From: Candidatus Wolfebacteria bacterium RIFCSPLOWO2_01_FULL_38_11
GTDB lineage: Bacteria > Patescibacteriota > Minisyncoccia > UBA6257 > UBA9933
DNA length: 44,396 bases
Direction of reading: 5' to 3'
Assembly: GCA_001793825.1 (NCBI GenBank)
Contig: MGIQ01000023.1
Span: 3,450 to 47,845, forward strand
Positions within the stretch are counted from its first letter, which is position 1; each line of letters starts with the position of its first letter. The notes below the pieces were generated by a model, which had not been told where the DNA came from, searched no databases, and saw only the letters and a list, made by a program, of their open reading frames with translations. Shown in pieces: positions 5,085-36,348 of this stretch. Position numbers and translations under genes: made by a program.

Positions 5085-6809
5085 TTAAAATTGCATTCTT
5101 CCTGTCACTTCTTCCACTTCTTCAAAAGTTGTCATTCCGGAAATAATTTTTAATATTCCGTCTTGCTGCATTGTCGCCATACCTTGTTCTAAGGCAAATT
5201 TTTTTATCGCCGATTCCGGAGCGGATGAAAAAATCAGCTCATCCAATTCTTTATGCGAAGAAAGAGCAATATGGTTTGGATCAATTAAAAGTTTTTCGTA
5301 TTCCGGGTCGTTTAAAATCAATTCATAAATTCCGATTCTTCCCTTATATCCAGAATTATTGCATTTGTCGCATCCGCCCTTTGACGCGGAAAAAATTTTT
5401 ATTTCTTTGAATTTTTCTTTATTAACTCTTTTCGGCAATTGCTTTAAAAATTTTTCTATTTTTATTTTTAATTCATTGTCTGTTTCTTTGATTGTTTTGC
5501 AATTATCGCAGAGTTTTCTTACTAATCTTTGCGCGATTATTAAATTTAAAGCCGACCCGATGCTGGAAGATTTTACTCCTAAATCAACCAAGCGGGGGAT
5601 GGCTCCTGCCGCTGAATTGGCATGGATTGTGGAAAACACTAAATGTCCTGTTAAAGCCGCCTGAATTCCGATTTCTCCGGTTTCTTTATCTCTTATTTCT
5701 CCCACCAAAATCACGTCTGGATCCTGCCTCATTAAAGATTTTAATCCATCGGAAAAATTATAACCCGCCTCTTCGTCAACTTGCGTTTGCTCAATGCCTT
5801 CCAGATGATATTCAATCGGATCTTCAATGGTAATAATTTTTATTTTCGGAGTTTTTTTATGTTTTAAAAAAGCGTAAAGCGTTGTTGTTTTCCCCGAACC
5901 GGTTGGTCCGGTATTTAAAATCAGTCCGTTCGGCCTTTTCAATTCTGTTTTAATAATTTCCAAATCGTCTTCTCTTATTCCCAGCTCGCCCAAAGAAATA
6001 TTAATTGCCTCCGGATCGAGCAATCTCATCACCACCACTTCTCCGAATTCCGAAGGCGCGATTGCCACTCTTACTTCAACTTCCTTGTTTTCTAAATTAA
6101 TTGTAAATCTTCCGTCTTGCGGTTCGTCATAAATATTAATTTTTAAATTGGAAAGAAGTTTTATTTTTGAAAGCAATCGGAAGTAAAAACTTTTTTCTTG
6201 ATTTTCAAAAACATCGTGCAAAATTCCGTCAATCCTCAATCTTATTTTTATTTTTTTATCTATTGGTTCAAAATGAATATCTGAAGCCCGATTTGCCATT
6301 GCTCCCAATAAAATTAATTCCAAAATCATTGCCGCGTCAACCGTTGCCAAATTCATCAGCCCCAGCGCTTGATTTAGACCATCAAGCGAATTTATATTTT
6401 TTTTCAAATCGTTAATTTGACCGACGCTTATCTTTCCACTGATTTTTCCGGGCTCTTTGGAAACGAATTTATAAAAATCAAAAATATAATTCAATCCGGG
6501 CAAAGAAACAACAAAAATTGTCACTTGATATCCCTTTACTTCTAATTCTTCTTTTAATTTTTTTATTTCCTTGGATCCTGGATCATAAACCGCCACTGCC
6601 AACTTGTTTTCTTTAAGCTCAACAGCCGCCGCTTTTATTTTTTTTGCTCTTTCTTCCGCAATTATGGCTAGGGCTTCTGTGTTTATCGGCGTGGTAAAAA
6701 CATTAAGATAAGAAAGTTTGCTTTTTTCCGCCGCTCTTTTGGCATCACGCTCTTCCGCTTCGCGCTTCATTTGCTTTAACTTGTTTTTAATCTCCGCTAT
6801 TGGCTTCAT
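5085..6809 (-). CDS. pilB: Type IV pilus assembly ATPase (GspE/PilB family)
   Basis: 574 aa. It has Walker A GPTGSGKTTT, the Asp box and His box region (MRQDPDVILVGEIRD) and a C-terminal CxxC...CxxC tetracysteine motif. Confidence 0.9.
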   Translation of the reverse strand: MKPIAEIKNKLKQMKREAEERDAKRAAEKSKLSYLNVFTTPINTEALAIIAEERAKKIKAAAVELKENKLAVAVYDPGSKEIKKLKEELEVKGYQVTIFVVSLPGLNYIFDFYKFVSKEPGKISGKISVGQINDLKKNINSLDGLNQALGLMNLATVDAAMILELILLGAMANRASDIHFEPIDKKIKIRLRIDGILHDVFENQEKSFYFRLLSKIKLLSNLKINIYDEPQDGRFTINLENKEVEVRVAIAPSEFGEVVVMRLLDPEAINISLGELGIREDDLEIIKTELKRPNGLILNTGPTGSGKTTTLYAFLKHKKTPKIKIITIEDPIEYHLEGIEQTQVDEEAGYNFSDGLKSLMRQDPDVILVGEIRDKETGEIGIQAALTGHLVFSTIHANSAAGAIPRLVDLGVKSSSIGSALNLIIAQRLVRKLCDNCKTIKETDNELKIKIEKFLKQLPKRVNKEKFKEIKIFSASKGGCDKCNNSGYKGRIGIYELILNDPEYEKLLIDPNHIALSSHKELDELIFSSAPESAIKKFALEQGMATMQQDGILKIISGMTTFEEVEEVTGRMQF

Positions 6810-11765: not shown

Positions 11766-11793
11766 AAAAAAACCGCCTGAAGGCGGTTTTTAT
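11766..11793 (-). terminator. Rho-independent terminator (bidirectional in shape)
   Basis: Hairpin AACCGCC-TGAA-GGCGGTT (11771-11788), flanked by an A-run and a T-run. It lies directly downstream of the 61-aa gene. Confidence 0.75.
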
Positions 11794-18348: not shown

Positions 18349-18813
18349 ATGGATGACTTAAATGGCAAAAAATGGCAAGCATTCTCCGGACGATACAACG
18401 ATATTCATAACCAGTTGATTAGCATCGGAAAAGCCAACGGCAATTGTTCTATTTACACCAAACTTGATGAAAAATTCTTAAAAATCTATCACGACACTTG
18501 CTTTGCCTTAGAGCTGAGTCATAAATTAAACGAGGAGGAATGCGCCGTTTGTCTTCCGGCAAAAATAATAATCGAATTTTGCCACCACACAATAATCAAT
18601 GACTGCTGTAAACTGAAGCGGGAAATAAACAGCCTTTCCAGCTACAATTCCCTTATTGAAAAAGCATTCAGCAATTTTCAAGACCATGGGAACAGCATCT
18701 TGATCAAATCTCTAAACGTGTTCCTTTCCGAAATAGAAGAGATTGTTAAATTTTTCGAGGAAATCTGCAAACCGGATTACCGGCTGGGATTAGAAAGAGG
18801 GTTGCTAACTTAG
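18349..18813 (+). CDS. Hypothetical Cys/His-rich protein
   Basis: 154 aa with a strong SD (TAGGAGG) 7 nt upstream, a CAVC...CHH...CC cluster and its own perfect terminator. I recognise no family. Confidence 0.55.
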   Translation: MDDLNGKKWQAFSGRYNDIHNQLISIGKANGNCSIYTKLDEKFLKIYHDTCFALELSHKLNEEECAVCLPAKIIIEFCHHTIINDCCKLKREINSLSSYNSLIEKAFSNFQDHGNSILIKSLNVFLSEIEEIVKFFEEICKPDYRLGLERGLLT

Positions 18814-18886: not shown

Positions 18887-20743
18887 ATGTCTCTCTTTAA
18901 ATTAAAATCAAAATTTAAACCATCTGGCGACCAGCCTCAAGCCATTAAAAAATTAATCGCAGGTCTTGAAAAAAGCGATCGTTTTCAAACTCTTTTGGGA
19001 GTTACCGGCTCCGGCAAGACTTTTACCATGGCTAATGTCATTGCTCATTTTAATATGCCGGTTTTGGTAATGGCCCCCAATAAAACTTTAGCCGCCCAGC
19101 TTTACCGCGAATACAAAAATTTCTTTCCCCAAAACTCCGTCAATTATTTCGTTTCTTATTACGACTATTATCAGCCCGAAGCTTATCTTCCCACCAGCGA
19201 CACTTATATAGAGAAAGAAGCGATGATTAATGAAGAAATTGATCGCTTGCGCCATCAAGCCACTAGCGCTCTTTTGAGCCGCCGCGATGTTATTGTGGTT
19301 GCTTCTGTTTCCTGCATTTACAATCTTGGCGTGCCAGTAAGTTATTCCGAAGCCGCTCTCCATTTGGAAGAAAATAAAGACATGACTCGCGGAGATTTAA
19401 TCAGGCAATTGGTAAAAATGCAATTTGAAAGAACTGGTGGAGCCTTAAAAAGGGGATTTTTCCGTGTTCGGGGCGATGTTTTTGAAATTATGCCTGCCAG
19501 CGGCGCTGTTATTAACAGGATTGAAATAAAAGAACAAAAAATTATTTCTATTGCTGATGTTGACCCAATTAGCCAAAAAATAATCCAAGAATTAAAAGAT
19601 ATTGTTATTTTTCCGCCCAAGCATTTTATTTCCAGCCAGCCTCAAATCGAATCCGCCACCAAAGAAATTAAAAAGGAATTAAAAGAGCGCTTACAATATT
19701 TTGAAAAAAACAAGCTTTATTTGGAAGCGGAACGATTAGAGCGAAGAACCAGATATGATATGGAAATGCTTCAAAGCATTGGTTATTGTCATGGCATTGA
19801 AAATTATTCTCGCCATCTTTCCGGAAAAATCAGCGGCGAATCGCCGGACACCTTGCTTTCTTATTTTCCTTCGGCTCGCCGAAGCCCCGGCGAAGAAGGC
19901 CACCCTGATTTTCTAACCATTATCGATGAATCTCATATTGCTGTTCCTCAAGTCAAAGGGATGTATGAGGGCGATAGAAGCCGTAAAGAGGTTTTAATCC
20001 AATACGGTTGGCGTCTGCCTTCTGCCTTGGATAATCGGCCGCTTAAATTCGAAGAATTTGAAAAAAGAATCAATCAGGTGATTTTTACTTCAGCCACTCC
20101 CGGCGCTTATGAAATGAAAAACTCTTCCAAAATTGTTGAACAAGTCATTCGGCCAACCGGCTTAATTGATCCGCCGATTGAAGTCCGTCCGGTTTTTAAC
20201 AAACAAAAAAATCGCAGTCAAATAGACGATCTAATGGAAGAAATAAAAAAAGTGGTCTCTAAAAAAGAGCGCGCCATTATCAACACGCTTACTAAAAAAA
20301 TGGCTGAAGATTTAACGGATTATTTAAAGAAAAAAAAGTTCAAAGCCAATTATATGCATTCAGAAACCAAAACTCTGGAGCGCGTTAAAATTCTGACCGA
20401 CTTCCGCTCCGGTAAGTTTGACGTTTTAATTGGCGTTAATCTTTTGCGGGAAGGATTGGATCTTCCTGAAGTGACTTTCGTGGCGATTTTGGACGCTGAC
20501 CGCGAAGGTTTTTTGCGTAGCGAATCGTCTATTATTCAAACCATGGGCCGCGCCGCCAGAAACGTTAATGGCAAAGTGATTTTATATGCTGATAATATTA
20601 CTGGCTCAATGAAGAGGGCGATTGATGAAGTTGAACGCAGAAGAAAAATTCAGGCGGAATATAACAAAAAACATAACATTACTCCTCAAAGTATTCACAA
20701 AGAAATTGAAAAACTTATAGAAATTGAAAATGAAAAAGAGTAA
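18887..20743 (+). CDS. uvrB: Excinuclease ABC subunit B
   Basis: 618 aa with GVTGSGKTFT, IIDESH, YGWRLPSALDNRPL and LREGLDLPEV. It contains an extra GC-rich segment at 19871-19903 (see findings). Confidence 0.95.
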   Translation: MSLFKLKSKFKPSGDQPQAIKKLIAGLEKSDRFQTLLGVTGSGKTFTMANVIAHFNMPVLVMAPNKTLAAQLYREYKNFFPQNSVNYFVSYYDYYQPEAYLPTSDTYIEKEAMINEEIDRLRHQATSALLSRRDVIVVASVSCIYNLGVPVSYSEAALHLEENKDMTRGDLIRQLVKMQFERTGGALKRGFFRVRGDVFEIMPASGAVINRIEIKEQKIISIADVDPISQKIIQELKDIVIFPPKHFISSQPQIESATKEIKKELKERLQYFEKNKLYLEAERLERRTRYDMEMLQSIGYCHGIENYSRHLSGKISGESPDTLLSYFPSARRSPGEEGHPDFLTIIDESHIAVPQVKGMYEGDRSRKEVLIQYGWRLPSALDNRPLKFEEFEKRINQVIFTSATPGAYEMKNSSKIVEQVIRPTGLIDPPIEVRPVFNKQKNRSQIDDLMEEIKKVVSKKERAIINTLTKKMAEDLTDYLKKKKFKANYMHSETKTLERVKILTDFRSGKFDVLIGVNLLREGLDLPEVTFVAILDADREGFLRSESSIIQTMGRAARNVNGKVILYADNITGSMKRAIDEVERRRKIQAEYNKKHNITPQSIHKEIEKLIEIENEKE

Positions 20744-20753
20744 TATAATATAA

Positions 20754-21296
20754 ATGATTTTATCTTCTCACATTATTGTCGCTTCCGCCGCCAGCGCGCA
20801 GTTTGCCAGCCGGCCTGCCGATCTTTCCAATTCCCTAATTGTTTTTGTTGTCTCTTTTATAAGCCATTATGCTTTGGATTTTATTCCCCATTGGGATTAC
20901 CATTTGGCTTCCATCAAAAAATTCCCCGCTGATAATAACAGCTACGAGGAGAAAAAATTTATTATTTCTTTTAGGACAATCTCCAGTGACCTTTTCAAGA
21001 ATTTAATAGACGGGATTATTGGATTATCGGGAGCAGTTTTAATTTTGGGATTTCCAACGGATTTTGAAAAACTATTTTTGATTTTTATTGCAGTATTTGC
21101 CAGCATCTTGCCCGATGCCTTGGAAGTTTGCTATCTGATTTTTAAAAAATTTCCTCTGACTTTAATCCACCGATTTCATCATTTCACCCATACTAGAAAA
21201 GTTTTCGAGGGCCGGCCGTTTTTTGGAATAATATCTCAAATAATTTCTGTTGCGATTATTTCAGCAGTTTTATTTTTGCTGGCAAACTGGTTTTAA
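20754..21296 (+). CDS. Hypothetical polytopic membrane protein (possibly YdjM/DUF457-like membrane hydrolase)
   Basis: 180 aa with several TM segments and His/Asp clusters (HYALDFIPHWDYH, HRFHHFTH). It lies between uvrB and uvrA. The family assignment is only a guess from memory. Confidence 0.4.
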   Translation: MILSSHIIVASAASAQFASRPADLSNSLIVFVVSFISHYALDFIPHWDYHLASIKKFPADNNSYEEKKFIISFRTISSDLFKNLIDGIIGLSGAVLILGFPTDFEKLFLIFIAVFASILPDALEVCYLIFKKFPLTLIHRFHHFTHTRKVFEGRPFFGIISQIISVAIISAVLFLLANWF

Positions 21297-21371: not shown

Positions 21372-23864
21372 ATGGAAGACAAAATTATTATCAAAGGCGC
21401 CCGAGTTCACAATCTTCAAAATATTGATCTTGAACTGCCGAAAAATAAAATGATAGTTTTTACCGGCGTCTCCGGAAGCGGAAAATCTTCCTTGGCTTTT
21501 GATACGATTTTTGCCGAAGGCCAGCGCCGCTACATTGAATCTCTTTCTCCTTATGCCCGCCAATTTTTAGGCCAAATGGATCGTCCTGATGTTGATGAAA
21601 TCATCGGTCTTTCCCCAGCTATTGCCATAGACCAAAAAGCTTTATCTCATAACCCGCGCTCTATTGTCGGCACTTTGACGGAAATTTACGATTATCTCCG
21701 CGTGCTTTACGCTCGTTTGGGCGAAGTTTATTGCCCCAAGTGCGGCTCTAAAATAAAAAAACTTTCTTTGGAAGAAATGGTTGATATTGTTGTCGCTAAG
21801 GCAAAAAGCTTAAAAGAAGAAACAGTTGTGATTTTTGCTCCGGTTGTCCGCGGTCGCAAAGGCGAGTATTATCAATTGCTTTATGATTTTCTTTCTTTGG
21901 GTTTTAGAGAAGCGAGAATTGACGGTAAAATCCATTCGCTCCATGAAAAAATAGAACTTTCCCGCTATAAGCCGCACGACATCGAAATTGTTATTGATGA
22001 AGTAATGATTAAAGACGAAAGCCGGCTTTTTGAAGCCGTTGAAAGCGCCCTAAATCATAGCAAAGGATTGATGCTGGCGAATTTTACAAAAGAGGAATTG
22101 CTTCTTTCTTCAAAATGGACTTGTCCCAATGATAATTTTTCTTTTCCCGAAGTTGAGCCGCGCTTATTTTCTTTTAACAGCCCTTACGGCGCTTGCGAGG
22201 ATTGCTCTGGTTTGGGCAAAAGCGATTTATTTTTAAAAACAATCTGTCCCGTTTGCCATGGTAAAAGATTAAAACCCGAAGCTTTGGCTGTGAAAATAAA
22301 GAATAAAAATATTTGGGAATTAAGTTCTTTAACTATTGATAAAATCTACGAGTTTTTTATTGATTATGAAGCTAAATTAAGCGAGCGCGAAAAAAAGATT
22401 GCCAGCAATATTTTAAAAGAAATAATCGGCCGTCTTAGTTTTTTATTGGAAGTCGGGCTTAATTATTTGTCATTAGACAGAGAAGCGGAAACTTTGTCCG
22501 GCGGCGAAGCTCAAAGAATTAGATTGGCTTCTCAAATCGGCTCTCAGCTTTCCGGCACGCTTTATGTTTTAGACGAGCCGACTATTGGCCTTCACGAAAG
22601 AGATACGGAGAGACTCATTAAAACCTTAAAATCATTGAAAGACCAAAAAAACACTCTTATTGTCGTGGAACACGATGAAAAAACCATTTTTGAATCGGAT
22701 TATTTTGTTGATTTAGGCCCTTTAGCCGGGAAAAATGGCGGCCGAGTAGTAGCCTTCGGCAAAACCGGCGAACTGATTAAAAATCCCAAAAAATTCAAAG
22801 AATCCTTAACTTTGAAATATTTAAGCAACGAGAAAAAAATAGAACTTCCGGAAATTCGCCGGTCAAAAAGCGCGGAAAAGATAAAAATTATCGGCGCCAG
22901 AGCAAATAATTTAAAAAATATTGACGTGGAAATCCCTTTAAGGAGATTAGTTTGCTTAACCGGCGTCTCTGGCAGCGGAAAATCTTCTTTACTCTACGAT
23001 GTTCTTTATAAAAATTTAAGCAATTTAAAAGCCGGTTTTAGTGAAATGGAAAATGCCAGCCGGATTTTGGGCACTGAATATATTGATAAAGTGGTAATGG
23101 TTGATCAATCACCCATTGGTCGCACGCCCCGCTCCAATCCTGCCACTTATACCGGAATTTTTACGCCGATTCGCGAATTTTATGCGTCTTTGGAAGAATC
23201 CCGAGCCAAAGGATATACCGCTTCCAGATTTTCTTTTAATGTCGTCGGCGGAAGATGTGAAGCCTGCCAAGGCGCTGGCTTTAATTTGATTGAAATGCAT
23301 TTTTTGCCGCCGGTTTTGGTTCAATGTGATGTTTGCCGCGCTAAACGTTTTAATCGCGAAACTTTGCAGGTAAAACATAAAAATAAAAACATTCACGACA
23401 TTTTGGAAATGAGAGTTGATGAAGCATTGGAATTTTTCGACGGTCTTTACACCATTACCGACAAACTTAAGGTTTTGCAGGAAGTGGGGTTGGGTTATCT
23501 GCAGCTTGGCCAATCAGCCACTACGCTTTCCGGCGGAGAAGCTCAAAGGATAAAGCTGGCTCGTGAGCTTACTCATCCTTTAGGCAGGCGCGCTTTGTAT
23601 CTTTTGGATGAGCCGACTGTCGGCCTTCATTATTACGATATTGAAATGCTGCTGAAAGTTTTTAATAAGCTGATTGAAAAAGGAAACACGGTGATTGTCA
23701 TTGAGCATAATATGCAAATAATCAAATCAGCTGATTATATTATTGATTTGGGTCCGGAAGGCGGCGATCTTGGCGGGAAAATTGTAACCAAAGGATTGCC
23801 CGAAGAAATTGTTCAAAATAAAAATTCTTACACCGGCGCCTATCTTAAGCGTTATCTTGTCTGA
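21372..23864 (+). CDS. uvrA: Excinuclease ABC subunit A (short form)
   Basis: 830 aa with two ABC modules (GVSGSGKSSL twice, LSGGEAQR twice). Only about 16 residues separate the CEDC and CPVC pairs, where the insertion domain normally sits. Confidence 0.93.
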   Translation: MEDKIIIKGARVHNLQNIDLELPKNKMIVFTGVSGSGKSSLAFDTIFAEGQRRYIESLSPYARQFLGQMDRPDVDEIIGLSPAIAIDQKALSHNPRSIVGTLTEIYDYLRVLYARLGEVYCPKCGSKIKKLSLEEMVDIVVAKAKSLKEETVVIFAPVVRGRKGEYYQLLYDFLSLGFREARIDGKIHSLHEKIELSRYKPHDIEIVIDEVMIKDESRLFEAVESALNHSKGLMLANFTKEELLLSSKWTCPNDNFSFPEVEPRLFSFNSPYGACEDCSGLGKSDLFLKTICPVCHGKRLKPEALAVKIKNKNIWELSSLTIDKIYEFFIDYEAKLSEREKKIASNILKEIIGRLSFLLEVGLNYLSLDREAETLSGGEAQRIRLASQIGSQLSGTLYVLDEPTIGLHERDTERLIKTLKSLKDQKNTLIVVEHDEKTIFESDYFVDLGPLAGKNGGRVVAFGKTGELIKNPKKFKESLTLKYLSNEKKIELPEIRRSKSAEKIKIIGARANNLKNIDVEIPLRRLVCLTGVSGSGKSSLLYDVLYKNLSNLKAGFSEMENASRILGTEYIDKVVMVDQSPIGRTPRSNPATYTGIFTPIREFYASLEESRAKGYTASRFSFNVVGGRCEACQGAGFNLIEMHFLPPVLVQCDVCRAKRFNRETLQVKHKNKNIHDILEMRVDEALEFFDGLYTITDKLKVLQEVGLGYLQLGQSATTLSGGEAQRIKLARELTHPLGRRALYLLDEPTVGLHYYDIEMLLKVFNKLIEKGNTVIVIEHNMQIIKSADYIIDLGPEGGDLGGKIVTKGLPEEIVQNKNSYTGAYLKRYLV

Positions 23865-23878
23865 CAATTTAGCTGCTA

Positions 23879-23906
23879 TTGACAAAAATTTTAATTTCTG
23901 TAAGCT
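23879..23906 (+). promoter_or_regulatory. Putative promoter of the GC-rich orphan ORF (TTGACA, 16-nt spacer, TAAGCT)
   Basis: The -35 is at 23879-23884 and the -10-like hexamer at 23901-23906, just after the uvrA stop. Confidence 0.35.
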
Positions 23907-23999
23907 TAAAAAACTTTTTTCTAAAAAGTGTTAGTTCTTTGAAATATTCGGAAAAACCCTTGGCGAAGGGTAAAAAAAAACCAAAAAAAGGAGAGTTAA

Positions 24000-24794
24000 A
24001 TGGAGAAAGAGCCGCAGTCAAAGCTGGACGTAAAGGAGTTCGCGAAAGGGCAGTTGGAGGCCTTAGGGAAGGAGCTGTTCAATGCGCTTCTTTTCATAAC
24101 CGCCTGTCTCGTGCGCCCCAACGGAGGAGTGATGATCATCGGAGCAAACGGGACCATCAGCGAGAGACTCCCGTTGGTCAATAATATAGACGGCACCTTC
24201 ATCACCTATGTCATGCTGACCCAGTATGACGGCGAGCAGATCGTCGCAGTCGGCCTGATCGGCAGGATGAGCGACAGCGTTAAGGAGGTAATCAGCCTGA
24301 TCGTCGGCAACATGAAAGAGCTGGGCATCGAAAGCGTATTCCTGCCCGGCTATCTCGGATACTCGTCCTTAAAGGTCCCTATGACTCACGTTTGCCGCGG
24401 GAGCAATCTCGATCAGCAGATAATACAGATCAAGGGTCCGGTGTTCTTCGACAACAACAATGACACCGTCTTGTTCACGCACGGCAAAGATATCATCGAA
24501 GTGCCGATGAGAGAAGCCTTCGGAAAGCTGAACTGGTCAGCCGTAAGTAGGAGGATCGGCGAGGTCAGCGACGAAATAACAGCGCTTGCCAGAGGAGCTG
24601 ATAGCTCTCTCATCATCAACACGACCGGCAAGTTCTATACGCTTAATCTGGAAGAGAAGAAAGTCAAACCCTTCTCTCTGCCGGCCGCGCTCGCTTCAAA
24701 GGCAACTCCGACCTTCTTCACCTTTACCGAAAGCAAGAAGTTCATCGCGGCTCTCTATGTCACCGGCCAGCTCACAATCGAAAGAGCCAGCTAA
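24000..24794 (+). CDS. Orphan hypothetical protein, compositionally foreign (~50% GC)
   Basis: 264 aa with SD GGAGAG upstream. No TM or signal peptide is visible and I recognise no family. Two hand-counted samples give 51-53% GC, against 35% in the adjacent uvrA 3' end. Codon usage is rich in CTG, ATC, GGC, GAC and AGC. Confidence 0.7.
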   Translation: MEKEPQSKLDVKEFAKGQLEALGKELFNALLFITACLVRPNGGVMIIGANGTISERLPLVNNIDGTFITYVMLTQYDGEQIVAVGLIGRMSDSVKEVISLIVGNMKELGIESVFLPGYLGYSSLKVPMTHVCRGSNLDQQIIQIKGPVFFDNNNDTVLFTHGKDIIEVPMREAFGKLNWSAVSRRIGEVSDEITALARGADSSLIINTTGKFYTLNLEEKKVKPFSLPAALASKATPTFFTFTESKKFIAALYVTGQLTIERAS

Positions 24795-24823
24795 GACGGG
24801 CCTGCCCGGAAAGATTCACCGAT

Positions 24824-24878
24824 AAAACCTTCGCCAAGGTTTTTAGCCCCGCATTTTTTAAAAATGCGGGGCTTCTTA
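24824..24878 (+). terminator. Tandem hairpin terminators after the orphan ORF
   Basis: AAAACCTT-CGCC-AAGGTTTT lies at 24824-24843. It is followed by AGCCCCGCATTTTT/AAAAATGCGGGGCT (24845-24872) and then TCTTATTT. Confidence 0.7.
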
Positions 24879-24915
24879 TTTGAATAAGTTTTTTAATTGA
24901 TTTATAACTACTTTT

Positions 24916-26127
24916 ATGAAGCTGATTGATCAGGCTAAAAAATTGCCTTTATCGCCCGGAGTCTATTTTTTTCTTAATAAAAAAAACGAAATTTTATATA
25001 TCGGCCGCGCTGTTTTTTTAAGGAAAAGAGTATTGAATTATTTCCAAAAAAACATTGACTCGCGCGTTGCCGAAATGATTCGTTCTGCTTCCAATATAAA
25101 ATTCAAAAAAACCGGCACTCTTTTAGAAGCCGTAATTTTAGAAGCTAATTTAATAAAAAAACACTGGCCCAAATATAATGTCAAAGAAAAAGATAATCGT
25201 TCTTTTATTTACATTGTTATTCCTAAAACCGATTACCCAAAGCCAATAATTGTTCGCGGACGCGAGCTGGAAAAATTTCCTTCCGCCACTGCTAAAATTT
25301 TCGGTCCCTATCAAAGTTTATCCCTTGTCAAAAGCGCTTTAAAAATTATTAGAAAAATTTTTCCCTACAGCACTTGTTTGCCTGCCAAAGCCTTGGCGAA
25401 GGCAGGCCGGCCTTTTTCCGACCAGCCTTGTTTTTATTATCAAATCGGTTTGTGTCCCGGCTTATGCATTGGCGCGATTTCCAAGAAAGAATACCAAAAA
25501 AACATAAAAAACATTATTTTGCTTTTATCCGGCCAAAAAAATAAATTAATAAAGGATTTACGAAAAGAAAATCCCGAAAAGGCCGGAGCTTTAAAACACA
25601 TCCAAGATGTCGCTTTGATTGCTGAAGCGGAAAAGGGATGGGCAGATGTCCAGAACCAAGGTTTAAAGCGCATTGAAGCCTATGACATTTCTCATTTGTC
25701 CGGAAAAGAAACTTATGGCTCAATGGCGGTTTTCTCTGGTAGCGAACCGGAAAAAAGCCAATATCGCTTGTTTAAAATAAAAACAGCTTTGCCATCCGAT
25801 GATTTACGGGCTTTGGAAGAGATGGTTTTAAGGCGCCTAAAACACAAAGAATGGACGCTTCCTGATTTGATTTTAATTGACGGCGGCAGTCCCCAAATCA
25901 ACTGGATTTCCGATGTTTTAAAAAGCCGGCGCTTAAATATTCCCCTGGTCGGCTTGGCAAAATCCGCCAGCCGGCGGAGCGGCGATAAATTGGTCTTTCC
26001 ACCCAAAACTAAAAAATCATTCAAGGAATTGGCGGATAGCATTAAAGGAATTTTGTTGAAATCCCGCGATGAAGCTCACCGCTTTGCTCTAAAATCCAGC
26101 CGCCGGTCAAGGAGAAGGCAATTTTAA
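24916..26127 (+). CDS. uvrC: Excinuclease ABC subunit C (short form lacking the C-terminal HhH2)
   Basis: 403 aa with the GIY-YIG N-terminus (PGVYFF...ILYIGRA), a Cys-rich region, and an endonuclease V-like domain (IEAYDISHLSG, DEAHRFA). It ends right after DEAHRFA. An extra segment lies at about 25384-25413. Confidence 0.9.
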   Translation: MKLIDQAKKLPLSPGVYFFLNKKNEILYIGRAVFLRKRVLNYFQKNIDSRVAEMIRSASNIKFKKTGTLLEAVILEANLIKKHWPKYNVKEKDNRSFIYIVIPKTDYPKPIIVRGRELEKFPSATAKIFGPYQSLSLVKSALKIIRKIFPYSTCLPAKALAKAGRPFSDQPCFYYQIGLCPGLCIGAISKKEYQKNIKNIILLLSGQKNKLIKDLRKENPEKAGALKHIQDVALIAEAEKGWADVQNQGLKRIEAYDISHLSGKETYGSMAVFSGSEPEKSQYRLFKIKTALPSDDLRALEEMVLRRLKHKEWTLPDLILIDGGSPQINWISDVLKSRRLNIPLVGLAKSASRRSGDKLVFPPKTKKSFKELADSIKGILLKSRDEAHRFALKSSRRSRRRQF

Positions 26128-26761: not shown

Positions 26762-27622
26762 ATGGATGACATCCGGTTGGAGGTTTTAGATATCGGCTTA
26801 GCCGATATCAAGGCGTTAAAGTTCGAATTAGTTGCCGGCCTCAGTCTTTTCAAGAGCGGGATGATTAAGGTTATAAATTTTAATCATATTCCTCGGTCAA
26901 TAGAGGCCATTGCCGAAGTGCTGATTCCTCTCTATGACAAAGGCGGCGTTTGGGTGGAGAGCATTCAGATAAGGCCGGAGGAAGAATTGGTAAGCGGGGA
27001 ATTGTTCGGTTTGCTTTCTCCGGCAACATTAAAACTGCTTAATAAAATCGCGGAAAAGATCAACGATGCCGGCATCAAAGATGCCGCTTTCCCTGTTCAT
27101 CCTTATATTCCCCTGCGGCTGGAAAAAAAGATAAACCCGTTTTTTGGGCATATGAGCCATCTATCCAGGGGCCATACCGGCCTGTTTCCCGATAACAATA
27201 TCAGGGGATTCCGGATATTAGATGGCGAAGACAATGCCGTCTTTATTTCCGGCGACAGAGAGATCAGGGAAATATTTTTAGGAGAAATTCATCGCCGGAA
27301 TTGGCTGCCTTCTTCGTATTCTTTATGGAAAAGCAAAAAGAAAATCAATTCCCTTGGCCGGCAAGCTGGTAATCTTCTTCCTTTGGCTTTGAAAAACGGG
27401 GATAGTTTGCGGATAAATATCCCTCTTCTTCGGGAGCTTAAAAGGGAGAAAAAGTGGAAAAAAAGACTTTTGTCTTTTTTAGGCAGAAGAAAACCGGTGG
27501 AGAAAATCATCGGCAGACCCAAAGTGACCAATTATGTCGGCCAGTGCCATTTTTGTAAAGGCGTTGAGGCGGCGGTATCGCAAAACGGCGCCAAGATATA
27601 CCTTTTTCCAAGTTCTTTATAA
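26762..27622 (+). CDS. Orphan hypothetical protein with basic C-terminal region
   Basis: 286 aa, with no family I recognise. It has a K/R-rich stretch (KREKKWKKRLLSFLGRRKP) and a CHFC pair near the C-terminus. GC is elevated. It has its own promoter, SD and terminator. Confidence 0.6.
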   Translation: MDDIRLEVLDIGLADIKALKFELVAGLSLFKSGMIKVINFNHIPRSIEAIAEVLIPLYDKGGVWVESIQIRPEEELVSGELFGLLSPATLKLLNKIAEKINDAGIKDAAFPVHPYIPLRLEKKINPFFGHMSHLSRGHTGLFPDNNIRGFRILDGEDNAVFISGDREIREIFLGEIHRRNWLPSSYSLWKSKKKINSLGRQAGNLLPLALKNGDSLRINIPLLRELKREKKWKKRLLSFLGRRKPVEKIIGRPKVTNYVGQCHFCKGVEAAVSQNGAKIYLFPSSL

Positions 27623-30147: not shown

Positions 30148-30172
30148 CTTTTATGAGAAAGTATGCTATAAA
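30144..30172 (+). promoter_or_regulatory. Putative internal promoter (TTGACT, 17-nt spacer, TATAAA)
   Basis: The -35 is at 30144-30149 and overlaps the stop of the 115-aa gene. The -10 is at 30167-30172. Confidence 0.4.
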
Positions 30173-30242
30173 TAAAAAGTTCTTTGAAAGATAAATAAGG
30201 AAAATTAACTTATAGAAAAACAAGCAGAAAAAAGGAGGCATT

Positions 30243-30470
30243 GTGATGAGATTTGTCACTTTTGTAATAATGGCGGCCCTGGTGGTAGTTTCCGCAATAA
30301 TGTTGGTAAACTCTGCCGTAGAAGAAGATCGGGCCGAGTGCCTCAGATTGCAGAAACAGGCAGAAGAGTTCAGGCTCGGGTTGTTTTATATAACTCCAGC
30401 CCAAAAAGCCCAGTGTGATGAATTAAAGATAGCAGTTAAAGCGCCTGTTAGAGAAGGGATTGTCCGATAG
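30243..30470 (+). CDS. Small membrane-anchored hypothetical protein
   Basis: 75 aa with AAAGGAGG upstream and a GTG/ATG start. It has one N-terminal TM (FVTFVIMAALVVVSAIMLV) followed by a helical charged region with 2 Cys. Confidence 0.5.
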   Translation: MMRFVTFVIMAALVVVSAIMLVNSAVEEDRAECLRLQKQAEEFRLGLFYITPAQKAQCDELKIAVKAPVREGIVR

Positions 30471-30490
30471 AAAACAGAAAGGAGACGGAT

Positions 30491-30718
30491 ATGCCTTCTT
30501 TTGAAGTTTCGGTAAAAAGCGTTGTTGACAACAAAGTTGAGATGTTTGTCGGCAACATAGTTCTCTGTTTTTATTTTCAAGGTGGGAAAATGAAGTCAAC
30601 AAGATACAAACCCGAGGCTCGGGTTTGTAATCAATTCGAACTTTGGGTGCCGGATGGGTTATTTAAGAAAGCATGCCGGCAAGCCGCCGCGATTTTAAGA
30701 TCGCGGCAGAAGAAGTAA
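30491..30718 (+). CDS. Small hypothetical protein, basic C-terminus
   Basis: 75 aa with AAAGGAGA upstream, followed by a perfect hairpin terminator. Confidence 0.5.
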   Translation: MPSFEVSVKSVVDNKVEMFVGNIVLCFYFQGGKMKSTRYKPEARVCNQFELWVPDGLFKKACRQAAAILRSRQKK

Positions 30719-30723
30719 GTCTT

Positions 30724-30757
30724 AAGGCTTTGGAGATAATCTCCAAAGCCTTTTTTT
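30724..30757. terminator. Bidirectional terminator between the small-gene island and rtcB
   Basis: AAGGCTTTGGAGAT (30724-30737) pairs perfectly with ATCTCCAAAGCCTT (30739-30752), followed by a T-run. The flanking genes are convergent. Confidence 0.8.
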
Positions 30758-32252
30758 ATTCTCCTTTAATTACCGCCAAAGGCACTAAACGCGCCACTTT
30801 TTTAGAAAGATTGGCCTGATGCACTATTTCCACCACTTCATCAATATCTTTGTATGCCTGCGGCGCCTCTTCGGCAATTCCTCTTATTGAATAACATTTA
30901 ACGATAATATTTTTATTTTCGAGATTTTTTATAATTTCTTGCCCTTTTAAAGTTTTTAGAGCTTGGTGCCGTGACATTGTTCGACCAGCTCCGTGGCAAG
31001 AGCTGTAAAAAGCTTCTTTTCCTTTTTCTGTTCCGTGCAAAATATAGGAAGCCGTGCCCATAGAACCCGGAATAATCACCGGCTGGCCGATTTCTTTATA
31101 TTTCTTGGGAATTTCCGGATGACTCGGCGGACTTTGTCTCGCCGTAGGCTCGCTTCGTCCAGCCGAAGGCGGAAAAGCCCGAGTTGCGCCTTTTCTATGA
31201 ACCAATAATCCGTCTTCTAATTTGGCAATATTATGGGCAACATCATATAGAACTTCCAGATTTTCATTATTTTCATTGAGAAAAACTTTTTTCCAGCTTT
31301 CTCTTATGTAGTGAGTAATCATTTGCCGATTAGCCCAGGCAAAATTTGCCCCACAAGCCATTGCTTTGAAAAATTTCTGGCCTTCCGGCGAATTAAACGG
31401 CGCGCAAGCCAATTCTTTATCCGGAAGATGAATATTGTATTTCGGCATTACTTGGAGCATTAATCTTATATAATCAGTGGCGATTTGGTGTCCTAATCCG
31501 CGACTGCCGGTATGAATCATTACAACCGCTTGATTTTTGAACAGTCCGAAAATTTTCGCGGCGTTTTCGTCAAAAATTTCCTCCACTTTCTGGATTTCCA
31601 AAAAATGATTGCCGCTGCCAAGCGTGCCAACTTGATCTCTGCCTCTATTTTTAGCGGTATCTGAAACTTCATTGGCATCCGCCCATTCCAATCGGCCGTT
31701 AGCTTCGCAATTTTCCATATCTTCTTTTTTGCCGTAACCTTGTTTTATTAGTTCTTGTGCTCCATTTTCCAAAATTTTATCCAACTCATTGACGCTCAAT
31801 TTTATTTTTCTGCCTCGGCCTAGTCCGGAAGGAACATTTCTTTGGATTTCCGTTGCCAAATCATCCAATCGATTTTTGATTTCATCGGCCGAAACATCGG
31901 ATTTTAATAATCTAACCCCGCAATTTATGTCGTAGCCCACGGCGCCGGGAGAAATTATACCGCTTGCCTCGCTGGAGCCTTGGCGAAGCGGGTCAGAAGC
32001 GCGAGTGGCAAAAACTCCGCCAATCGGCGAGCCGTATCCTTCATGGACATCAGGCATTACTAGCGCGTATTTTTCAATGCCCGGAAGTGTGGTTAAATTC
32101 ACTAATTGTTCTAGCGATTTATCCTTAAAAACCGATTCCAGCATTTTTTCGCTGGCGTAAATTCTGGCTGGAACTCTCATATCGCTTCGGAAAGTTTTCG
32201 GTATTTCCCATAGATAATCGCTTATTTTTATAAGATTATTTTTTGCAATCAT
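30756..32252 (-). CDS. rtcB: RNA-splicing ligase RtcB (3'-phosphate/5'-hydroxyl RNA ligase)
   Basis: 498 aa with MPDVHEGYG, GYDINCGVR, GSGNHF, HTGSRGLGHQ, HRKGATRAF, PGSMGTASY and SSCHGAGR. It has two extra GC-rich segments (see findings). Confidence 0.95.
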   Translation of the reverse strand: MIAKNNLIKISDYLWEIPKTFRSDMRVPARIYASEKMLESVFKDKSLEQLVNLTTLPGIEKYALVMPDVHEGYGSPIGGVFATRASDPLRQGSSEASGIISPGAVGYDINCGVRLLKSDVSADEIKNRLDDLATEIQRNVPSGLGRGRKIKLSVNELDKILENGAQELIKQGYGKKEDMENCEANGRLEWADANEVSDTAKNRGRDQVGTLGSGNHFLEIQKVEEIFDENAAKIFGLFKNQAVVMIHTGSRGLGHQIATDYIRLMLQVMPKYNIHLPDKELACAPFNSPEGQKFFKAMACGANFAWANRQMITHYIRESWKKVFLNENNENLEVLYDVAHNIAKLEDGLLVHRKGATRAFPPSAGRSEPTARQSPPSHPEIPKKYKEIGQPVIIPGSMGTASYILHGTEKGKEAFYSSCHGAGRTMSRHQALKTLKGQEIIKNLENKNIIVKCYSIRGIAEEAPQAYKDIDEVVEIVHQANLSKKVARLVPLAVIKGE

Positions 32253-36046: not shown

Positions 36047-36304
36047 ATGCCAATTACTAAATCAGCTAAAAAAGCTTTGCGCCAAAGCGTCAGAAAGCGG
36101 AAAAAAAATCTGAAAAGAAAATCCGAATTGAAGTCTGTTATTAAGAAATATAAAGGGCTTATTATTGAGGGTAAAAAAGAAGACGCCGCCAAATATTTGT
36201 CCCAAGTTTACAAAAAACTCGACAAGTTCGCCAAGGTCAATCTTATTAAAAATAACAAAGCTTCAAGAACTAAATCCCGGCTTTCCAAGCTTTTAGCAAA
36301 ATAA
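36047..36304 (+). CDS. rpsT: 30S ribosomal protein S20
   Basis: 85 aa with the MPITKSAKKALRQS N-terminus and strongly basic composition. Confidence 0.93.
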   Translation: MPITKSAKKALRQSVRKRKKNLKRKSELKSVIKKYKGLIIEGKKEDAAKYLSQVYKKLDKFAKVNLIKNNKASRTKSRLSKLLAK

Positions 36305-36337
36305 AAAACAGCCCAATCATTGATTGGGCTGTTTTTT
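36303..36337. terminator. Bidirectional terminator between rpsT and pnp
   Basis: CAGCCCAATCA (36309-36319) pairs perfectly with TGATTGGGCTG (36321-36331). It is flanked by AAAAAA and TTTTTT. Confidence 0.85.
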
Positions 36338-36348
36338 ATTTAATTCAT

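What the first reader, a model, noticed from the sequence alone, without database searches (positions are those of the whole stretch)
23952..24872. Compositionally foreign orphan ORF cassette wedged between uvrA and uvrC, bracketed by inverted palindromic repeats
A 264-aa ORF (24000-24794) interrupts an otherwise contiguous uvrB-uvrA-uvrC arrangement, and I recognise no motifs in it. Hand counts give 51-53% GC in two samples of the ORF, against 35% in the last 60 nt of uvrA. Its codons are G/C-ending, unlike its neighbours.

It has its own TTGACA promoter-like site, an SD, and a double hairpin terminator. It is bracketed by AAAAACCCTTGGCGAAGGG (23952-23970) on the left. On the right is AAAACCTTCGCCAAGGTTTT (24824-24843), the reverse complement of the same core. 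This looks like a recently acquired, self-contained expression cassette delimited by the same element that invades coding genes. The protein is predicted to be soluble (no TM or signal peptide) and its function is unknown. Its placement inside a DNA-repair cluster makes it a candidate repair accessory, a defence or anti-defence gene, or a selfish passenger.
Basis: partly seen in the sequence, partly recalled or inferred. Interest (0 to 1): 0.7.

Follow-up and report, generated by a model that had tools for sequence, protein, structure and literature searches.

The report
Foreign orphan gene between uvrA and uvrC
A 264-codon gene with no detectable relatives and a foreign base composition sits in the normally fused uvrA-uvrC junction of a groundwater Wolfebacterium; it is a real, probably recent horizontal acquisition, but its function cannot be read from sequence or predicted structure.

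Summary
ORF 24000-24794 (+) is the GC maximum of the window: 52.8% against 38.1%, with GC3 0.72 against 0.26-0.49 in the other 38 genes. It shows strong codon periodicity. It has a good SD, a tandem terminator, and a 16/17 inverted repeat on both sides.

The closest syntenic relative has UvrA 81% identical. There uvrA and uvrC overlap by 4 nt and the ORF is absent. Of 102 related Patescibacteria loci, 44 keep a uvrA-uvrC junction of at most 100 nt and 58 carry unrelated inserts.

The protein is an orphan. Pfam, PHROGs, NCBIfam, PADLOC, PDB, 5.8 billion clustered proteins, a full HMMER scan of 1.84 billion representatives, phages, plasmids and viral contigs gave nothing credible. AlphaFold models were poor.

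The best reading is a horizontally acquired orphan or passenger gene at a recurrent insertion spot. Nothing links it to repair or defence.

The "self-contained mobile cassette" idea is only partly supported:
- The TTGACA hexamer lies outside the repeat.
- There is no target duplication and no transposase.
- The repeat core is a short hairpin. It also occurs inside a 30-nt in-frame insertion in uvrC, and with one mismatch inside one in rtcB.

Interest is modest.

The parts
21372..23864 (+). uvrA (830 aa), the upstream neighbour. In the closest relative its stop overlaps the uvrC start.
   Evidence: Pfam UvrA_inter and ABC_tran. 81% aa identity to L255 6494-9004.
23865..23999 (+). AT-rich 5' spacer (27% GC) absent from the closest relative. 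It contains the TTGACA hexamer (23880-23885), the left hairpin and the SD.
   Evidence: The L255 junction has no spacer.
23953..23969 (.). Left arm of the 17-nt inverted repeat. The hairpin ACCCTT-GGCG-AAGGGT spans 23956-23971 and the 12-mer core spans 23958-23969. A-runs lie on both sides of the + strand, so it looks like a terminator only for minus-strand transcripts leaving the ORF.
   Evidence: RNA fold -8.2 kcal/mol.
23988..23993 (+). Shine-Dalgarno AAGGAG, 6 nt before the ATG.
   Evidence: Read directly.
24000..24794 (+). ORF264, an orphan protein-coding gene (28.9 kDa, pI 6.2). GC is 52.8% and GC3 is 0.72.
   Evidence: No homologues. Identical context in all population contigs.
24828..24844 (.). 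Right arm of the inverted repeat. The hairpin AAAACCTT-CGCC-AAGGTTTT spans 24824-24843 and is followed by T. It is the first + strand terminator-like hairpin.
24845..24882 (+). Strong intrinsic terminator: a 13-bp stem (AGCCCCGCATTTT/AAAATGCGGGGCT) plus a T-rich tail.
   Evidence: both hairpins together fold at -26.9 kcal/mol.
24880..24908 (+). Possible uvrC promoter: TTGAAT, 17 nt, TATAAC. It ends 7 nt before the uvrC ATG, which would give a leaderless or near-leaderless transcript. This is inference only.
   Evidence: Read. The consensus scan did not report it because the second hexamer ends in C.
24916..26127 (+). uvrC (403 aa, short Patescibacteria form), the downstream neighbour.
   Evidence: Pfam GIY-YIG and UvrC_RNaseH_dom.
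25378..25407 (+). 30-nt in-frame palindromic insertion in uvrC (LPAKALAKAG). It carries the third exact copy of the 12-mer (25391-25402) and is absent from the closest relative.

Best explanation
ORF264 is a real protein-coding gene. The lineage of this Candidatus Wolfebacteria population (GW2011_GWC1_37_10-like, Rifle groundwater) acquired it horizontally from a donor with much GC-richer synonymous sites.

It landed in the uvrA-uvrC junction. In the nearest relative that junction is a 4-nt ATGA overlap, meaning translational coupling. Across Patescibacteria the same junction is a recurrent landing place for unrelated accessory genes.

Inferred expression:
- Transcription reads through from uvrA or starts in the AT-rich spacer, because no + strand terminator lies between uvrA and the ORF.
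- Translation starts from the ORF's own strong SD.
- The transcript ends at two tandem intrinsic terminators.
- uvrC is therefore uncoupled from uvrA and must use its own promoter in the last 40 nt of the spacer.

The two flanking hairpins are copies of a short GC-rich palindromic sequence specific to this organism. That sequence also occurs in a 30-nt in-frame insertion in uvrC, and with one mismatch in one in rtcB. At the cassette the hairpins face outward as terminator-like insulators. It is not shown whether they helped integration or simply accumulate at permissive sites.

The protein is a 29-kDa mixed alpha/beta orphan, probably soluble. Most likely it is an accessory or passenger protein with no dedicated role in nucleotide excision repair. 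That last point is inference from the heterogeneity of cargo at this site, not a demonstrated fact.
For: Coding and foreign:
- GC3 is 0.72 against 0.26-0.49 (z about 7.8). GC1 and GC2 are host-like. Periodicity p = 6e-15. The ORF is longer than the longest stop-free frame in 2000 shuffles.
- No Rfam family and no tRNA.

Not an assembly artefact:
- The junctions are identical in at least 9 contigs from several samples and assemblers, at 99.7-99.95% identity.

Insertion:
- L255 is collinear over 16 kb: TGT, uvrB, a 184-aa membrane ORF, uvrA, uvrC, mgtC, dsbA, SHMT, rtcB. Identities are UvrA 81%, UvrB 77%, UvrC 69%.
- In L255 uvrA and uvrC overlap and there is no ORF264.

Hotspot:
- Of 102 loci, 44 have a gap of at most 100 nt and 58 carry inserts.
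- The cargo includes MFS, EamA, Germane/Gmad2, an IS200-like transposase, TrmB, MGMT, CYTH and orphans. None is related to ORF264.

Other lineage-specific genes:
- The two other window genes missing from L255 (26762-27622 and 18349-18813) are the next most atypical in GC3 and CAI. This fits a series of acquisitions of different ages.

Terminators and SD.

Repeat core elsewhere. It is absent from 160 relatives' loci.
Against: - No donor or homologue was found in about 15 billion proteins, so HGT rests on composition and synteny alone.
- The nearest relative is only about 70-80% identical in protein. The insertion cannot be dated, and loss in the relative is not formally excluded. The widespread tight junction argues for gain.
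- The flanks of the ORF are AT-rich like the host, so the boundaries of the transferred DNA are unclear.
- Selection on the ORF cannot be assessed: the population shows 2 synonymous and 2 non-synonymous differences.
- Expression is not shown.
- The 16/17 inverted repeat, placed symmetrically 30 and 33 nt from the ORF ends, is more orderly than chance accumulation would predict.
Confidence: 0.7

Rival explanations
1. The unit 23953-24844 is a non-autonomous mobile cassette, like a MITE with a passenger gene or a mobile insertion cassette. Its 17-nt terminal inverted repeats would be recognised in trans by a transposase encoded elsewhere. The solo 30-nt palindromes in uvrC and rtcB would be related mini-elements or excision footprints.
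For: - The inverted repeat matches 16/17, with 0 of 300 shuffles reaching that.
- The arms lie symmetrically, 30 and 33 nt from the ORF ends.
- The same 12-nt core lies in an in-frame insertion in uvrC, and with one mismatch in rtcB. Both are absent from the closest relative, and they sit in both gene orientations.
- The core is specific to this organism.
- IS200-like transposases occupy the same junction in L016 and L071.
Against: - No target-site duplication is seen at the arm ends.
- No transposase or integrase lies in the window around the cassette.
- Only one cassette copy is seen.
- Each arm is a self-complementary hairpin of the A-run/stem/T-run type that this genome uses as terminators elsewhere (11768, 36299).
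- The loops are inverted, which does not fit IS200/IS605-type ends.
- Motif enrichment beyond the 12-mer is weak.
Confidence: 0.12
2. ORF264 is a functional partner of the NER machinery, or a defence or anti-defence gene, placed here for co-regulation with uvrABC.
For: - Its position is inside the uvrB-uvrA-uvrC cluster, in the same orientation, with probable read-through from uvrA.
- One relative carries a DNA-repair gene (an MGMT DNA-binding domain) at the same junction.
Against: - There are no hits in PADLOC, Pfam, NCBIfam, PHROGs or PDB.
- It is confined to one population.
- Cargo at this junction in relatives is mostly unrelated to repair: transporters, Germane, TrmB, a transposase, CYTH.
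- The insertion breaks uvrA-uvrC coupling and puts a double terminator in front of uvrC.
Confidence: 0.1
3. The ORF is not, or is no longer, a functional gene. It would be a decaying remnant of foreign DNA or a GC-rich non-coding or RNA element that happens to be open.
For: - It has no homologues.
- AlphaFold confidence is poor: pLDDT 43 for the whole protein and 60 for the C-terminal half.
- The population shows 2 non-synonymous against 2 synonymous differences.
Against: - Strong codon-phase periodicity and an ORF longer than any of 2000 shuffles.
- A well-placed SD.
- The ORF is intact in all contigs.
- No Rfam match.
- Single-sequence AlphaFold is expected to be poor for orphans.
Confidence: 0.08

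Closest known systems
Horizontally acquired ORFan genes or genomic islets in conserved syntenic blocks
   Same: Atypical GC3 and codon usage. Absent from the syntenic site in relatives. No homologues. Own SD and terminator. Sits at a junction that carries different cargo in different lineages.
   Different: It is a single gene with no integrase, tRNA or direct repeats. It sits inside a DNA-repair gene cluster of an ultra-small CPR genome, where such insertions break a translationally coupled gene pair.
MITEs with passenger genes and mobile insertion cassettes (prokaryotic MITE review, PMC10969869)
   Same: A short unit bounded by inverted repeats (16/17 nt) that carries a non-transposase ORF.
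   Different: No target-site duplication, no second copy, and no cognate IS seen. The repeat arms are themselves hairpins that resemble terminators.
Rickettsia palindromic elements (PMC1779305, PMC10969869) and mitochondrial GC clusters of yeast (PMC4478555)
   Same: This comparison concerns the flanking core, not the ORF. Short GC-rich palindromes in an AT-rich genome are found both between genes and as in-frame insertions in conserved genes (uvrC, rtcB, uvrB). They are absent from the nearest relative.
   Different: They are much shorter than RPEs (12-42 nt here against roughly 100-150 nt, from my own knowledge). Only three exact core copies are seen in 44 kb. Mobility is not shown, and a replication-slippage or template-switch origin is not excluded.
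Bidirectional intrinsic terminators (A-run, GC stem, T-run)
   Same: The right hairpin pair fits this shape and is placed directly after the stop codon. The genome uses the same architecture at 11768-11791 and 36299-36341.
   Different: The left copy lacks a T-run on the + strand. It has only a 6-bp stem and could terminate only antisense transcripts.

Membership tests
Horizontally acquired gene (genomic islet) | Base composition and codon usage deviate from the host genome | tested here: met
   GC3 0.72 against 0.26-0.49. The CAI-like index is the lowest of 39 genes.
Horizontally acquired gene (genomic islet) | Absent from the orthologous, syntenic site in relatives | tested here: met
   In L255 uvrA and uvrC overlap by 4 nt. 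44 of 102 loci have a gap of at most 100 nt, and no insert is homologous. The nearest relative is only about 70-80% identical in protein.
Horizontally acquired gene (genomic islet) | Identifiable donor or homologues elsewhere | tested here: not met
   Only the query itself was found in 5.8 billion clusters and in 1.84 billion representatives. The exceptions are two giant repeat proteins whose scores are sums of many weak repeat matches. Nothing was found in viral contigs, phages or plasmids.
Horizontally acquired gene (genomic islet) | Adjacent mobility gene or tRNA | tested here: not met
   No tRNA in the window. No integrase or transposase among the neighbours.
MITE / mobile insertion cassette | Terminal inverted repeats | tested here: met
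   16/17 match, arms 23953-23969 and 24828-24844.
MITE / mobile insertion cassette | Target-site duplication flanking the repeats | tested here: not met
   The outer flanks ...ATTCGG and AGCCCC... share nothing.
MITE / mobile insertion cassette | Multiple copies in the genome and a cognate transposase | not testable with these tools
   Only 44 kb of this genome is available. Within it there is one cassette and no transposase. The 12-nt core has one extra exact copy and one 1-mismatch copy inside in-frame insertions. Two further 1-mismatch copies were not examined.
IS200/IS605-derived palindrome-associated element | Subterminal hairpins in the same strand orientation at both ends, with a Y1 transposase | tested here: not met
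   The loops are reverse complements (GGCG against CGCC), so the hairpins lie on opposite strands. No Y1 transposase is present in the window.
Known anti-phage defence systems | Match to a PADLOC model | tested here: not met
   0 families at E <= 1.
Known protein families or folds | Significant profile or structural match | tested here: not met
   Pfam, PHROGs, NCBIfam and PDB sequence searches gave nothing. Foldseek against PDB gave no hit with E <= 0.001 and TM below 0.32, using low-confidence models.
Intrinsic terminator (right flank) | GC-rich stem-loop followed by a T-run directly after the stop codon | tested here: met
   24845-24873 has a 13-bp stem plus TCTTATTT. 24824-24843 has an 8-bp stem plus T.
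RPE-like or GC-cluster-like palindromic elements (repeat core only) | Related palindromic copies inserted in frame in conserved genes and missing from relatives | tested here: inconclusive
   The uvrC and rtcB 30-nt insertions share TTGCCT..AGCCTTGGCGAAG and are absent from L255. The copy number is small and the shorter motifs are not clearly enriched.

The most novel reading that the evidence does not exclude
The ORF is the cargo of a previously undescribed kind of hairpin-bounded, non-autonomous gene cassette in CPR bacteria. The same machinery would scatter 12-42-nt GC-rich palindromes in frame into essential genes (uvrB, uvrC, rtcB). The uvrA-uvrC junction would be a preferred docking site for such cargo across Patescibacteria.
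Probability: 0.1. Interest if true: 0.65.

Novelty: new member of a known kind. Interest (0 to 1): 0.3.

Why it matters
As it stands, this is one more lineage-specific hypothetical protein in a CPR genome. It is already deposited as KKQ23419.1, annotated "hypothetical protein". Such genomes are full of these.

Three points are useful:
- It is a clean, datable example of gene gain in an ultra-reduced genome. The gain breaks a translationally coupled repair-gene pair.
- The uvrA-uvrC junction holds variable cargo in more than half of the related Patescibacteria loci examined. It could serve as a marker site for accessory-gene flux in this radiation.
- The flanking hairpin core ties the cassette to GC-rich in-frame mini-insertions in housekeeping genes. 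That phenomenon may deserve its own study.

None of this currently bears on a long-standing open question.

Tried and rejected
Function by homology:
- Pfam, PHROGs, NCBIfam, PADLOC and PDB sequence searches gave nothing.
- The 5.8-billion-cluster word-indexed search found only the query itself.
- The full HMMER scan of 1.84 billion representatives found only the query plus P0004 and P0005. These are 2312-aa and 7426-aa repeat proteins. Their E of about 4e-9 comes from summing up to 22 weak repeat matches, and pairwise BLAST E-values are 1e-4 to 0.005. I rejected them as spurious.
- A 25% match over 105 aa to the class A PBP linker in the window has pairwise E = 7e-4. I rejected it because no PBP appeared in the database-wide HMMER scan.

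Function by structure:
- The single-sequence AlphaFold model of the whole protein had pLDDT 43. Residues 135-264 alone gave pLDDT 60.
- Foldseek against PDB gave nothing with E <= 0.001.

Alternative frames and RNA:
- Other-frame ORFs had no Pfam hits.
- Rfam gave nothing at gathering thresholds and only sub-threshold noise at relaxed E.
- No tRNA was found.

Mobile origin:
- Viral contigs, the phage collection and the plasmid collection gave no homologue.
- A viral-contig scan for the 15-16-nt repeat gave 86 single hits. That is roughly what I estimate chance would give, so it is uninformative.

Closer relatives:
- Genome and metagenome scans with UvrC reached at most 64% identity.
- The protein search added one relative at 69% (L255) and one at 66% (L256).
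- No empty-site allele was found in the same population.

Relation to other inserts:
- Other GC-elevated orphan inserts after uvrA (L042, L035, L010, L018) show no similarity to ORF264 or to each other.

Internal duplication of the protein was not evaluated because the script failed before that step.

Literature search found nothing specific on such elements in CPR.

Full report
**Source.** The ORF product is 99% identical to KKQ23419.1, a hypothetical protein of Candidatus Wolfebacteria bacterium GW2011_GWC1_37_10. Every contig that carries it (L001-L008, L257) is 99.7-99.95% identical to the window over up to 16.8 kb and has the same gene order. Only one population is known to have the gene. 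The cassette is not an assembly chimera, because independent assemblies of several samples give the same junctions.

**Observation.**
- ORF 24000-24794 (+, 264 aa) is present.
- Its GC is 52.8% against 38.1% for the window. It is the highest of all 795-nt windows (profile).
- The shift lies almost entirely in third codon positions. GC1/2/3 is 0.50/0.37/0.72. The other 38 genes have GC3 of 0.26-0.49 (mean 0.36, sd 0.046), and GC1 and GC2 ranges that include the ORF's values.
- A codon-adaptation index built from the other genes is 0.485, against 0.61-0.80.
- Phase periodicity is highly significant (p = 6e-15). No shuffle of the ORF gave an open frame that long (0 of 2000). It is therefore a protein-coding sequence shaped in a GC-richer genome, not a structured RNA. 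Rfam and ARAGORN also find nothing.
- The SD AAGGAG lies 6 nt before the ATG.
- Two consecutive + strand hairpins follow the stop codon: 24824-24843 and a 13-bp-stem terminator at 24845-24873.

**The flanking repeat.**
- Arms 23953-23969 and 24828-24844 are 16/17 complementary. No shuffle of the two spacers reaches that (0 of 300).
- Each arm is itself a small hairpin: CCCTT-GGCG-AAGGG and AACCTT-CGCC-AAGGTT. The inverted relation therefore rests on the loop and on the two stems having the same sequence.
- On the + strand the left copy has A-runs on both sides, so it cannot terminate uvrA transcripts. It has the shape of a terminator for antisense transcripts leaving the ORF.
- The right copy and its neighbour are ordinary + strand terminators. 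They have the A-run/stem/T-run shape this genome also uses at 11768 and 36299.
The promoter scan is at chance level. The unit bounded by the repeats is therefore not self-contained for transcription. Read-through from uvrA is the simplest expectation, but this is inference.

**Is it an insertion?**
- UvrC-based scans of species-representative genomes and of JGI metagenomes found only relatives at 64% UvrC identity or less. A protein search added one at 69% (P0007).
- Its contig, L255, has 37% GC and is collinear with the window over 16 kb: TGT, uvrB, a homologue of the 180-aa membrane ORF, uvrA, uvrC, mgtC, dsbA, SHMT, rtcB. Identities are UvrA 81%, UvrB 77%, TGT 76%, RtcB 75%.
- In L255 the uvrA stop and the uvrC start overlap (AAAATGA). 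ORF264 is absent.
- Of 102 Patescibacteria loci with uvrA upstream of uvrC, 44 have a gap of 100 nt or less and 58 carry inserts of 0.1-5 kb.
- The inserts are unrelated to each other. They include an MFS transporter (shared by three other Wolfebacteria), EamA, Germane/Gmad2, an IS200-like transposase, TrmB, a P-loop protein, an MGMT domain, CYTH and several orphans. None resembles ORF264.
- The tight junction is thus the likely ancestral state, and the site is a recurrent landing place for accessory genes.
- Two other window genes are missing from L255: 26762-27622 and 18349-18813. Both lack Pfam hits, and they are the next most atypical in GC3 (0.49, 0.47) and CAI. This fits a series of acquisitions of which ORF264 is the least ameliorated.

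**What is the protein?**
- There is no match in Pfam, PHROGs, NCBIfam, PADLOC or PDB sequences.
- Among 5.8 billion clusters only the query itself is found.
- A full HMMER pass over 1.84 billion representatives returns the query plus two giant repeat proteins. Their scores are sums of many weak repeat matches, so I reject them.
- IMG/VR, INPHARED phages and PLSDB plasmids gave nothing.
- AlphaFold without an alignment gave pLDDT 43 for the whole protein and 60 for residues 135-264. It predicted a mixed alpha/beta first half and a beta-rich second half.
- Foldseek against PDB gave no hit with E <= 0.001.
- The protein is 28.9 kDa with pI 6.2. One borderline hydrophobic stretch (residues 29-47) is interrupted by R-P-N-G-G.
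- Population variation is too sparse to measure selection: 2 synonymous and 2 non-synonymous differences.
- Function therefore cannot be assigned. I favour an accessory or passenger protein unrelated to NER, because cargo at this junction in relatives is functionally miscellaneous and because the insertion places a double terminator in front of uvrC.

**The repeat core and coding genes.**
- The 12-mer CCTTGGCGAAGG occurs exactly three times in 44 kb: at both cassette flanks and at 25391-25402 inside uvrC. With one mismatch allowed there are six sites, against 0.28 expected.
- It occurs in none of the 160 relatives' loci.
- The uvrC copy lies in a 30-nt in-frame palindromic insertion (LPAKALAKAG, 25378-25407) that L255 and most relatives lack.
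- A one-mismatch copy lies in a 30-nt in-frame insertion in rtcB (31962-31991), in the opposite gene orientation. It shares TTGCCT..AGCCTTGGCGAAG with the uvrC insert.
- All five window-specific in-frame insertions relative to L255 are GC-rich (0.58-0.83). Each lies in, or overlaps, a stretch that folds into a hairpin: uvrB 19874-19891, two in uvrC and two in rtcB.
- L255-specific insertions are mostly AT-rich.
- Other Wolfebacteria carry a different palindrome, GTCGCCGGCKGGCGAC, at the same UvrC loop.
- It does not show that the element moves the cassette. Enrichment of the shorter motifs is weak, there is no target duplication, and no transposase is in view.
- The nearest analogies are Rickettsia palindromic elements (PMC1779305, PMC10969869) and mitochondrial GC clusters (PMC4478555). 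Both are resemblances, not memberships.

**Verdict.** The interpretation "recent foreign acquisition" is well supported by composition and synteny. "Self-contained cassette delimited by a mobile element" is possible but unproven. Repair, defence or anti-defence roles have no support. This is a new member of a familiar class, a horizontally acquired orphan gene at a variable junction. Interest is modest.

Noticed in passing
window 19874-19891 (uvrB), 25378-25407 and 25957-25968 (uvrC), 31962-31991 and 31131-31172 (rtcB): All five in-frame insertions relative to the closest relative L255 are GC-rich (0.58-0.83) in a 38% GC genome. Each lies in or overlaps a hairpin-forming stretch. The uvrC and rtcB 30-nt inserts share TTGCCT..AGCCTTGGCGAAG in opposite gene orientations. 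L255-specific insertions are mostly AT-rich.
   Followed up: partly
L009 from 7454; L013 from 7532: Other Wolfebacteria carry a different GC-rich palindrome (GTCGCC-GGCK-GGCGAC) as a 12-aa insertion at the same UvrC loop, between the conserved cysteines. That loop seems to collect hairpin insertions repeatedly.
   Followed up: partly
window 26762-27622 and 18349-18813: Two further ORFs without Pfam hits (286 aa and 154 aa) are absent from the collinear relative L255. After ORF264 they have the highest GC3 (0.49, 0.47) and among the lowest codon-adaptation values in the window. They may be older acquisitions.
   Followed up: partly
L009-L168, L255, L256 (uvrA-uvrC junction): uvrB-uvrA-uvrC synteny is widespread in Patescibacteria, but the uvrA-uvrC junction varies. 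44 of 102 loci have a gap of at most 100 nt and 58 carry inserts of 0.1-5 kb. The cargo is unrelated: MFS, EamA, Germane/Gmad2, an IS200-like transposase, TrmB, MGMT, CYTH and orphans.
   Followed up: yes
L042 5410-6009; L035 5319-5900; L010 about 5800-6400: Other Patescibacteria also have GC-elevated segments (0.50-0.53 against flanks of about 0.41) with orphan ORFs directly after uvrA. They have no Pfam or Rfam hits and no similarity to ORF264 or to each other.
   Followed up: partly
window 22041 (variant in L006) and 25494 (variant in L003): Some population contigs carry nonsense variants in repair genes: UvrA E224* in L006, and UvrC Y193* in L003, where uvrC is called as two genes. These are either real pseudogenisation in subpopulations or assembly errors.
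   Followed up: no
window 30148-30755: A 608-nt intergenic region before rtcB has three strong hairpins (30605-30629, 30686-30707, 30724-30752). It also holds a dense cluster of population SNPs at 30475-30677. There is no Rfam match.
   Followed up: no
window 24880-24918: TTGAAT, 17 nt, TATAAC ends 7 nt before the uvrC ATG, and there is no SD. uvrC may be expressed as a leaderless mRNA after losing its coupling to uvrA. This was read from the sequence only.
   Followed up: no
window 20754-21296; L255 4178-4732 and 4862-6112: A 180-aa membrane ORF between uvrB and uvrA is conserved in L255 (41% identity), so it predates ORF264. L255 has its own extra 416-aa orphan between that ORF and uvrA.
   Followed up: partly
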